A stretch of 64,000 nt of DNA from Squalus acanthias (lineage: Eukaryota). Where the stretch lies: assembly GCA_030390025.1 (NCBI GenBank), contig CM059432.1, positions 89,220,001 to 89,284,000 of the forward strand. The letters run 5' to 3'. Positions 14,986 to 16,401 of the stretch are shown here, piece after piece; position 1 is the stretch's first letter, and each line of letters begins with the position of its first letter. The position numbers were made by a program, and so were the translations under genes. The notes below the pieces were generated by a model that was not told the origin of the DNA, ran no database searches, and worked only from the letters and a program-made list of their open reading frames with translations.

Positions 14986-16401
14986 TAGTTGGGAAAATGT
15001 TGGAATCTATTATAAAGGATGCAATAACTGGGCACTTAGAAACTAATAGTAAGATTGCGCAGAGTCAACATGGATTTATGAATGGGAAATCCTGTTTGAC
15101 AAACCTATTGGAGTTCTTTGAGGATGTAACTAGTGGAGTAGACAAAGGGGAACCAGTAGATGTGGTGTATCTGGATTTTCAGAAGGCCTTCGATAAGATC
15201 CCACACAAGAGGTTGGTGAACAAAATTAGGGCACATGGAATTGGGGGTAATTAGCATGGATTGAGAATTGGTTAACAGACAGAAAACAAAGAGTAGGGAT
15301 AAACGGATCTTTTTCAGGATGGCAGGCTGTGACTAGTGGGGTACTGCAAGGATCGGTGCTTGGGCCCCAGCTATTCACAATCTATATCAATGATTTGGAT
15401 GAGGGGACTAAATGTAACAATTCCAAATTTGCTGATGATACAAAGCTAGGTGGCAGTGTCAGTTGCCAAGAGGATGTGAAGAGGCTTCAAGGGGATCTCG
15501 ACAGGCTCAGTGAGTGGGCGAGAACATGGCTAATGGGATATAATGTGGATAAATGTGAAGTTATCCACTTTCGTAGAAAAAACAGAAAGGCAGAGTATTT
15601 TCTAAATGATGAAAGATTGGGGAATGCAGATGCTCAAAGGGACCTGGGTGTCCTTGTTCATGGGTCACTGAAAGTGAATGTGCAGGTGCAGCAAGCCATT
15701 AGGAAGGCAAATGGTATGCTGGCCTTCATTACAAGAGGATTTGAGCACAGGAGTAAAGAAGCTTATAAAGTTGCCAGAAAAGCTTACTCCTTTGACTTGA
15801 TACTAGCTTTAAACACCACCTGGAAGGGGCACCTGGAGTACGGTGTACAATTTTGGTCTCCTTACCTAAGGAAGGATATACTTGCCATAGAGGGAGTGCA
15901 ACGAAGGTTCACGAGATTGATTCCTGGGATGGTGGGACTGTCGTATGAGAAGAGATTGAGTAAACTAGGCCTGTATTCTCTTGAATTCAGAAGAATGAGA
16001 GGGGATCTCATTGAAGCATACAAAATTATTACAGGGCTTGATAGGATGGATGCTGGGAGAATGTTTCCCTTGGCTGGGGAGTCTAGAACCAGGGGCCACA
16101 GCCTCAGGATAAAGGGTAGGCCACTCAGGACTGAGATGAGAAGAAATTTCTTCACACAGAGGGTGGTGAATCTTTGGAATTCTCTACCCTAGAGGGCTGT
16201 GGAGGCTCAGTCATTGGGTATATTCAAAACAGAAGTCAATAGATTTCTGACGAGTAAGGGCATCAAGGGATATGGCAATAGGGCCGGTGAATGGAGTTGA
16301 GGCAGAAGATCAGCCATGATCTCATTGAATGGTGGAGCAGGCTCGAAGGGCTGAATAGCCTACTCCTGCTCCTATTTCTTATGTTCTTATGTTCTTACGT
16401 T

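What the first reader, a model, noticed from the sequence alone, without database searches (positions are those of the whole stretch)
15758..15832. Three-piece locally templated patchwork insertion inside CR1 ORF2
Seen: the CR1 segment read as ...[18 protein letters not shown] in the 37957 copy is replaced by three pieces. (A) 15758-15781 is an exact 24-nt copy of 12614-12637. (B) 15780-15812 is the reverse complement of 12588-12620 (31/33). (C) 15809-15832 is an exact 24-nt copy of 16663-16686, from the different host LINE. The joints overlap by microhomologies (GAAG, AAGC at an AAGCTT palindrome, TTAA, GCAC). Piece C matches the local copy (TTAAACACCACCTGGAAGGGGCAC) but not paralogues at ~956 or ~47363, so copying happened at this locus after nesting. 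The reading frame stays open. Inference: a germline double-strand-break scar from iterative template switching (Pol theta end joining or MMBIR), using templates 3.1 kb upstream and 0.85 kb downstream.
Basis: partly seen in the sequence, partly recalled or inferred. Interest (0 to 1): 0.75.

Follow-up and report, generated by a model that had tools for sequence, protein, structure and literature searches.

The report
Patchwork repair scar in shark LINE
Inside a broken jumping gene of a shark-like genome, about 36 bases are replaced by 69 bases that match DNA 0.85 to 3.1 kb away on both sides; this is likely the one-off scar of a repaired DNA break, a neat example of a known kind of mutation.

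Summary
In detail: A (24/24), B (31/33, inverted) and C (24/24) match at the stated places. The patch replaces about 36 nt by 69 nt (+11 codons) in ORF2 of a full-length, disabled CR1-type LINE (9504-16401). A and B come from the same element; C comes from the flanking host LINE and carries all 4 changes private to the local copy, so copying was in cis. It is no subfamily feature: depth over the patch is thousands-fold or more below the flanks in 4 of 4 runs, and 0 of 111 spanning homologues have it. Direct read confirmation was inconclusive. Corrections: exact junction overlaps are 2, 2, 4 and 3-4 nt, not 4 each; one of B's mismatches is likely a fourth, break-proximal piece; the open frame is chance (about 0.11). 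Best reading: microhomology-primed template switching during break repair, a chimeric repair-mediated duplication or complex MMBIR-type insertion. Pol theta alone fits kb distances less well. Formation during retrotransposition is not excluded (0.1). The class is in print, and this scan noted similar scars on other DNA, two in this genome.

The parts
15760..15828 (+). The patch: 69 nt in place of about 36 nt of CR1 ORF2, C-terminal to the RT core; net +33 nt (+11 codons)
   Evidence: Alignment with window paralogues; 107 of 111 spanning homologues are exactly 11 residues shorter here, 4 are 13 or 15 shorter, none equal; family loose ends at 15761 and 15830
15758..15781 (+). Piece A, direct copy of 12614-12637; first 2 nt (GA) shared with the left flank
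   Evidence: 24/24
15780..15812 (-). Piece B, inverted copy of 12588-12620; exact blocks 15780-15785, 15787-15798, 15800-15812
   Evidence: 31/33
15783..15791 (+). Likely fourth piece spanning B's first mismatch (15786): CTTACTCC equals the family sequence that the patch replaced; TTACTCCT equals the reverse complement of the left flank 15749-15756
   Evidence: Loose-end consensus behind 15761 in 3 of 4 runs, agreement 0.81-0.94; exact 8-nt snap-back match, chance about 0.01; hairpin predicted
15809..15832 (+). Piece C, direct copy of 16663-16686; overlaps B by TTAA and the right flank by CAC/GCAC
   Evidence: 24/24; carries the 4 changes private to the local host copy
12588..12637 (.). Template of A (12614-12637) and B (12588-12620, other strand), overlapping at the palindrome AAGCTT (12615-12620); ORF2 linker of the same CR1 element, 3144 nt upstream today, about 1.4 kb without the two nested insertions between
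16663..16686 (+). Template of C in the endonuclease-coding part of the host LINE, 854 nt downstream of the piece and about 260 nt beyond the CR1 3' end
   Evidence: family letters A,A at 16681/16682 in all laid depth of X4, X15, X16
15749..15756 (-). Left flank, possible snap-back template for 15784-15791
9504..16401 (+). Full-length CR1-type LINE: 5' UTR, ORF1 with GDSL esterase, ORF2 with endonuclease and RT, short tandem-repeat tail, 4-nt duplication CACT (9500-9503, 16402-16405). Disabled by three nested insertions, frameshifts near 14375 and 15250 and a stop at 16190
   Evidence: sequence; Pfam PF13472, PF03372, PF14529, PF00078; frames and stops; junctions
16402..17764 (+). 3' part of the older host LINE into which the CR1 inserted (5' part 9382-9503); paralogues at 575-1518 and 47174-48502
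   Evidence: self-BLAST; translation of the paralogue
12880..14265 (-). Nested inverted 3' fragment of another CR1, between template A/B and the patch
14621..14985 (.). Nested MITE with terminal inverted repeats and TA duplication, between template A/B and the patch

Best explanation
The patch is built from copies of DNA 0.85 to 3.1 kb away on both sides and is likely the scar of one germline DNA break (or collapsed fork) that was repaired by repeated microhomology-primed template switching in cis. Shown: what each piece matches, the junction overlaps, the loss of about 36 nt, single or very low copy number, and the local origin of C. Inferred order, written for the top strand: the left end (ending ..AAAGA at 15759) primed on the upstream duplex of the same element with 2 nt and copied 22 nt (A); the new strand let go, folded at the palindrome AAGCTT and picked up a few bases from the break site itself (the original CTTACTCC, or snap-back on the left flank); its end then matched the other strand of the same upstream site at 11 of 12 nt, which primed B; TTAA linked B to C; CAC/GCAC closed the break. 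C could equally have been made by the right end and annealed to B at TTAA (two-ended SDSA); the sequence cannot tell these apart. The enzymes are inferred: invasion or D-loop synthesis of the SDSA/MMBIR kind for the kb-distant templates, with Pol theta plausible for the fold-back and the last join. The patch has no function and was not amplified.
For: Matches and chance levels. Joint chance of overlaps of at least 2, 2, 4 and 3 nt at four random junctions 2e-5. Cis origin: the local host copy has 52 private changes in 698 aligned columns against two paralogues, 4 of them lie in the C template and C has all 4; rough chance per independent copy 4e-6; at 16681 and 16682 all laid depth in X4, X15 and X16 (8-14 contigs with the other letter) reads the family A. 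Not a family feature: the bin wholly inside the patch (15772-15817) has depth 23.8, 0.57, 252 and 222 against 4.9e5-3.4e6 in the two adjoining bins; 0 of 111 spanning homologues have the extra length. Primer AAGCTTACTCCT against template AAGCTTCCTCCT, 11/12. Geometry fits repair-mediated duplications: 824 of 1136 donors within 5 kb, peak near 1.2 kb, microhomology plus deletion, 20 two-donor chimeras (PMC2671141), and complex germline MMB-TIs, 33 of 103 and 26 of 99 events, up to five templates (PMC8421209).
Against: No listed contig bridges the patch in the four runs laid, X4 has almost no depth there, and the window's own G at 16682 was seen in none of them, so independent read support is missing. 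No orthologous empty site could be seen (no genome held); the replaced sequence is inferred from paralogues. A 2-nt primer at the first junction is weak for invading a duplex kilobases away. The fourth piece rests on 8 nt and one base. The second difference in B (15799) is unexplained beyond a later transition. Dating does not separate the patch from the insertion of the CR1.
Confidence: 0.65

Rival explanations
1. Same scar, but made by polymerase theta alone, by iterative priming on long resected single strands.
For: Overlaps of 2-4 nt, tracts of 20-30 nt, deletion with insertion and a fold-back piece are TMEJ hallmarks; patchwork insertions are attributed to iterative Pol theta rounds (PMC8654963; PMC13269935; PMC4032859). 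For a left end, B (top strand upstream) and C (bottom strand downstream) are the strands that resection exposes (inference).
Against: POLQ-dependent templates lay mostly within about 20 bp of the junction in a 500-bp search (PMC11541566); here they are 0.85 and 1.4-3.1 kb away. A needs the upstream bottom strand, which resection removes or leaves in duplex (inference).
Confidence: 0.18
2. The patch arose during insertion of the CR1: the element's reverse transcriptase, or host repair acting on the unfinished second strand, jumped among the cDNA, the new strand and the target flank.
For: Every template lies in the element or 260 nt into its 3' flank. The element is young by its frames: 1 stop in 732 ORF2 codons, divergence about 1% (95% range 0.03-6%), so 1-2 copy/template differences in 69 nt are compatible with the same age (P 0.24-0.84 at 1-2%). 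L1 insertions with nearby templated genomic DNA are reported (PMC11702581, passages).
Against: The patch is internal, about 640 nt from the 3' end of an element with clean ends and a target duplication. B is antisense, so it cannot come from the RNA in first-strand synthesis. At 4-5% divergence the agreement would be too good (P 0.01-0.09). Break repair explains the same geometry in non-LINE settings.
Confidence: 0.1
3. Assembly or library artefact (chimeric molecule).
For: No bridging contig listed; depth 0.57 in X4.
Against: B differs from its template at two places, which a chimera of the same individual would not give; depth 23.8 in X1 is of the order of single contigs in that run (10-91); the local host allele was not seen either, so these runs do not demonstrably show this locus and the hole proves nothing.
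Confidence: 0.05
4. Subfamily feature, or pieces captured in trans from other copies or RNAs of two abundant families.
For: Both families are very abundant (summed depth 1e5-1e7); I could not see the family letters at the A/B template, so locality of A and B rests on window paralogues and proximity only.
Against: Depth collapse over the patch in 4 of 4 runs; 0 of 111 homologues; C carries 4 of 4 private changes.
Confidence: 0.02

Closest known systems
Repair-mediated duplications (RDs), chimeric class; Pace et al. 2009, PMC2671141 (abstract, parts 1-2 of 7 of the main section and passages read)
   Same: Insertion inside a TE copy, donors on the same chromosome within 5 kb, microhomology plus deletion, no poly(A) and no target duplication, more than one donor (20 of 1136; 5 with both donors proximal), seen in fish too (zebrafish 80).
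   Different: Pieces are 24-33 nt (their insertions are 50 bp or more, median 147); three or four pieces instead of two; both strands of one donor are used; cartilaginous fishes were not surveyed. Their Table S1 was not read.
Complex germline MMB-TIs (MMBIR-type templated insertions); Osia et al. 2021, PMC8421209 (passages and section 10 part 1 of 2 read)
   Same: Several short templates in mixed orientation joined by microhomology or microhomeology, germline, no gross rearrangement; their example FG-16 has three templates.
   Different: Their automatic search covers templates within 100 bp; here the main templates are kilobases away on both sides. Supplementary template distances were not read.
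TMEJ templated insertions (TINS), patchwork and inverted types; PMC8654963, PMC13269935, PMC4032859, PMC11541566 (passages read)
   Same: Deletion with insertion, short tracts, 2-4 nt overlaps, fold-back piece.
   Different: Templates there lie within about 20-100 bp of the break; only the 8-nt piece here does.
CR1-clade non-LTR retrotransposons of cartilaginous fishes (the carrier)
   Same: Esterase ORF1, endonuclease-RT ORF2, short tandem-repeat tail; best named homologues from rays, skates and a chimaera at 56-70% identity.
   Different: This copy alone carries the patch.

Membership tests
Repair-mediated duplication (Pace 2009) | Insertion that interrupts a TE copy and does not align to the family | tested here: met
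Repair-mediated duplication (Pace 2009) | Donor on the same chromosome, more than 50 bp and less than 5 kb away | tested here: met
   3144 and 854 nt
Repair-mediated duplication (Pace 2009) | Microhomology, deletion or filler at the breakpoints; no poly(A) tail | tested here: met
   overlaps 2, 2, 4, 3-4 nt and about 36 nt lost
Repair-mediated duplication (Pace 2009) | Insertion of at least 50 bp (their search threshold) | tested here: inconclusive
   69 nt in all, but net +33 and each piece 33 nt or less
Repair-mediated duplication (Pace 2009) | Inserted sequence has a single donor in the genome | tested here: inconclusive
   C local by private changes; no genome held for a full search
Repair-mediated duplication (Pace 2009) | Empty orthologous site in a relative | not testable with these tools
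   no genome held; contigs of the runs are too short in these repeats
Complex MMB-TI (Osia 2021) | Insertion of 25 bp or more from several templates, at least one inverted, with microhomology at the switches | tested here: met
Complex MMB-TI (Osia 2021) | Inverted template within 100 bp of the junction | tested here: inconclusive
   only the 8-nt snap-back match; the long inverted template is 3.1 kb away
Complex MMB-TI (Osia 2021) | Supported by reads as a germline variant | tested here: inconclusive
   no bridging contig listed
TMEJ templated insertion | Templates in the immediate flank (about 20-100 bp) | tested here: not met
   A, B and C templates 0.85-3.1 kb away against PMC11541566, PMC13269935
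TMEJ templated insertion | Dependence on POLQ | not testable with these tools
   fossil event
CR1 subfamily feature | Present in many copies | tested here: not met
   depth over the patch 0.57-252 against 4.9e5-3.4e6 in adjoining bins, 4 of 4 runs; 0 of 111 homologues

The most novel reading that the evidence does not exclude
The patch was written during integration by the CR1 reverse transcriptase itself, jumping in second-strand synthesis from the cDNA to its own new strand and into the target flank and back, leaving an internal four-piece patchwork in a full-length element with clean ends. It would be a fossil record of DNA-templated jumping by a non-L1 LINE enzyme, and such patches in young elements would map how second-strand synthesis proceeds.
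Probability: 0.1. Interest if true: 0.55.

Novelty: new member of a known kind. Interest (0 to 1): 0.22.

Why it matters
As a single event it has no consequence: the element is dead and the patch was not amplified. It is a well-resolved specimen of a known mutational process, with one useful feature: very short tracts (24-33 nt) drawn from kilobases away on both sides and from both strands of one site, a range that the TE-based survey (50 bp or more) and the read-based tools (templates within 100-500 bp) both largely skip. Repeat-rich shark genomes could supply many such events and show how often short insertions use distant cis templates, which bears on the split of work between Pol theta and invasion-based repair.

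Tried and rejected
Whole-genome search: no genome is held for this window. Reads: 24 runs listed, 4 laid (X1, X4 of organism A; X15 of F; X16 of G); all are short contigs; none of the 32 listed pieces bridges the patch and 391,677 pieces were not shown; the residual depth in X15 and X16 (252, 222) may be the orthologous patch or family contigs that fit B or C in part, and cannot be told apart; the near-zero depth in X4 is no evidence of absence. Two scans of the metagenome collection for close CR1 copies, to learn the family letter at 12601: 0 matches and 1 unrelated-looking locus, L001, 50% over 29 residues, dropped. A first anchor-based count of homologues placed both anchors in only 45 of 120 proteins (36 at spacing 32 against 43 in the query) and was replaced by the BLAST count. 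Selection on the open frame: rejected, chance 0.11, and frameshifts lie upstream. Stable structure of the whole patch: z -0.89; templates unstructured, z +0.9 and +1.3; only 15745-15795 folds better than shuffles (z -2.3, 4 of 200) and the 38-kb paralogue of the break site weakly (z -1.8, 14 of 200), so a hairpin as the cause of the break remains a lead only. A fifth donor at 61104-61119 (16/16): rejected as chance, because the same bases continue B in register at 15 of 16. One review on templated insertions (PMC10962320) was not held. A search for shark or CR1 templated insertions listed 7 papers, none on the subject by title and start of abstract; subscription journals are mostly not covered.

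Full report
Observation. The three matches are real and at the stated places: 15758-15781 equals 12614-12637 (24/24), 15780-15812 equals the reverse complement of 12588-12620 at 31 of 33, and 15809-15832 equals 16663-16686 (24/24). Under a third-order Markov model of the window the expected number of chance matches is 1e-9 for A and 4e-9 for C. A window-wide scan found 1159 exact matches of 16 nt or more, 28 of them isolated from longer homology on both sides; apart from tandem duplications, element tails, terminal inverted repeats and a few 16-22-nt matches between paralogues or at tens of kb, A and C are the only ones at kilobase distance.

Setting. The patch lies in ORF2 of a full-length CR1-type LINE at 9504-16401, with 5' UTR, an ORF1 with a GDSL esterase domain, an ORF2 with endonuclease and reverse transcriptase domains (Pfam) and a short tandem-repeat tail. 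Its best named homologues come from rays, skates and a chimaera, so the genome is likely a cartilaginous fish (inference). The element sits in an older LINE, split at 9503/16402 with the duplication CACT, and has itself taken three insertions (11736-12483, 12880-14265, 14621-14985). The template of A and B is therefore the upstream part of the same element, 3144 nt away today and about 1.4 kb without the two insertions between; the template of C is in the host LINE, 854 nt away. The order of the nested insertions and the patch is not known.

What was replaced. Window paralogues and the loose ends of family contigs at 15761 and 15830 show about 36 nt replaced by 69. Of 120 homologous proteins held (the best 120 of 969 hits), 111 span the site: 107 are 11 residues shorter, 2 are 13 and 2 are 15 shorter, none matches the query's length. 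The frame stays open, but random patches of this build do so with chance 0.11, and the ORF is broken upstream by frameshifts and insertions. I see no sign of function.

Not a subfamily feature. Of 24 runs listed I laid 4 on 15450-16800 at 85% likeness. The bin wholly inside the patch has summed depth 23.8, 0.57, 252 and 222; the two adjoining bins have 4.9e5 to 3.4e6. The same call does not confirm the patch: none of the 32 listed pieces bridges it, and the window's G at 16682 was seen in no run, so these contig sets do not demonstrably hold this locus. The depth in X1 is of the order of its single contigs (10-91), which is compatible with presence and proves nothing. An artefact is unlikely because B differs from its template at two places, but I leave it 0.05.

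Cis origin. Against two paralogues, the local host copy has 52 private changes in 698 ungapped columns; four fall in the C template (16665, 16674, 16681, 16682) and C has all four; a rough chance for an independent copy is 4e-6. Reads agree for two of them: all laid depth at 16681 and 16682 in X4, X15 and X16 has the family A (the other two places were not among the 40 rows shown of 95). For A and B the local template beats the only homologous paralogue in the window (35 of 50 identical), but I could not obtain close family copies, so locality of A and B rests on proximity.

Junctions, corrected. Exact overlaps are GA at the left (the family reads GATG, not GAAG), AA between A and B (AAGC needs a one-base slip in a run of five A), TTAA between B and C, and CAC or GCAC at the right. 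Four random junctions reach 2, 2, 4 and 3 nt with joint chance 2e-5, so microhomology use stands.

A likely fourth piece. B's first difference (15786) cannot be a later change in the template, where the other base would be a stop in an open ORF. It falls within CTTACTCC (15783-15790), which is the start of the family sequence that the patch replaced (loose ends behind 15761 in X1, X15, X16; 18, 34 and 44 contigs; agreement 0.81-0.94), and within TTACTCCT (15784-15791), the exact reverse complement of the left flank 15749-15756. An 8-mer over a given base matches within 20 nt of either flank by chance in about 1 of 100 trials, and 15745-15795 folds into that hairpin (z -2.3). Against this: more distant family contigs and the window paralogues read otherwise at that place, so this element's own ancestor is inferred. 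I put a local origin of this base at about two to one over a point change. If so, the new strand ended in AAGCTTACTCCT, which matches the other strand of the upstream site at 11 of 12 and explains why the same distant site was used twice in opposite directions.

Mechanism. Shown: pieces, templates, overlaps, deletion, low copy number, cis origin of C. Inferred: one break or collapsed fork at about 15760; priming on the upstream duplex (A); release and fold-back at the break site; re-priming on the other strand of the same site (B); a switch to the downstream template or annealing with a right end that had copied it (C); closure at CAC/GCAC. For a left end, resection exposes the strands needed for B and C but not for A, which needs invasion of a duplex or a sister; this and the distances favour an SDSA/MMBIR-like process (0.65) over Pol theta alone (0.18), whose templates lay mostly within about 20 bp in PMC11541566 (passages). 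Iterative Pol theta rounds do give patchworks from flanking DNA (PMC8654963; PMC13269935; PMC4032859; passages), and may have made the fold-back and the last join.

Timing. The patch cannot predate the CR1 insertion, since C comes from the flank. Whether it is later is open: ORF2 has 1 stop in 732 codons examined, a divergence near 1% with a 95% range of 0.03-6%; one or two differences in 69 nt are expected at 1-2% (P 0.24-0.84) and unlikely at 5% (P 0.01-0.03). Formation during integration is therefore not excluded. L1 insertions with nearby templated DNA are reported (PMC11702581, passages), but here the patch is internal, the ends are clean and B is antisense; I give it 0.1.

Comparison. 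Pace et al. (PMC2671141; abstract, parts 1-2 of 7 and passages) found the same thing by the same logic, insertions that interrupt TE copies: 824 of 1136 donors within 5 kb, a peak near 1.2 kb, microhomology with deletion, 20 two-donor chimeras, 5 with both donors close, and 80 cases in zebrafish. Osia et al. (PMC8421209; passages and section 10 part 1) counted 33 of 103 and 26 of 99 germline templated insertions as complex, with up to five templates. The present case meets the tested features of both, fails the near-flank feature of TMEJ insertions, and differs in degree: shorter pieces than the first study searched for, more distant templates than the second. Supplementary tables of both papers, which I did not read, may hold closer cases. 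One search for shark or CR1 cases listed 7 papers, none on this subject by title and start of abstract. Earlier notes of this scan describe inverted templated copies about 1 kb from their donors in this genome and a patchwork in an Alu in another; they are unchecked and I use them only as a sign that the class recurs.

Verdict. A real, probably four-piece, cis-templated repair scar in a dead LINE: a new member of a known kind, interest 0.22.

Noticed in passing
window 61104-61122: Unique-looking DNA 45 kb away matches 15796-15814 of the patch at 16/16 (18/19), including B's second difference (15799). Chance that any 16-mer of the patch matches in the window is about 0.003; treated as coincidence because B continues in register with its template.
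   Followed up: yes
window 16663-16697: The C template is a local hot spot of change: 4 private substitutions in 24 nt (P about 0.1 at the copy's 7.4%) and an 8-nt deletion 3 nt beyond the end of the copied stretch. One substitution creates CACCTGGA, which also begins the right flank of the patch (15830-15837).
   Followed up: partly
window 9504-16401: Full-length CR1-type element with nearly intact frames (1 stop in 732 ORF2 codons) yet three nested insertions, one of them a CR1 fragment with no stop in about 370 codons: a burst of recent activity or a very slow clock.
   Followed up: partly
window 11736-12483 and 37075-37821: The same 750-bp element (85% alike) is nested, in opposite orientations and at different places, in two CR1 copies; a third partial copy at 3043-3349.
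   Followed up: no
window 38140-38215: The paralogous, unpatched site folds into a modest hairpin (z -1.8) whose loop lies where the left breakpoint of the patch falls.
   Followed up: partly
window 18380-19421 and 41941-43855: Two tandem arrays (period about 57-58 nt; a longer compound array).
   Followed up: no
window 26651-26789: A 50-nt exact local duplication inside a copy of the MITE family found at 14621-14985.
   Followed up: no
window 38174-38762 and 63412-64000: Two CR1 3' portions 91.5% alike in opposite orientation 25 kb apart.
   Followed up: no
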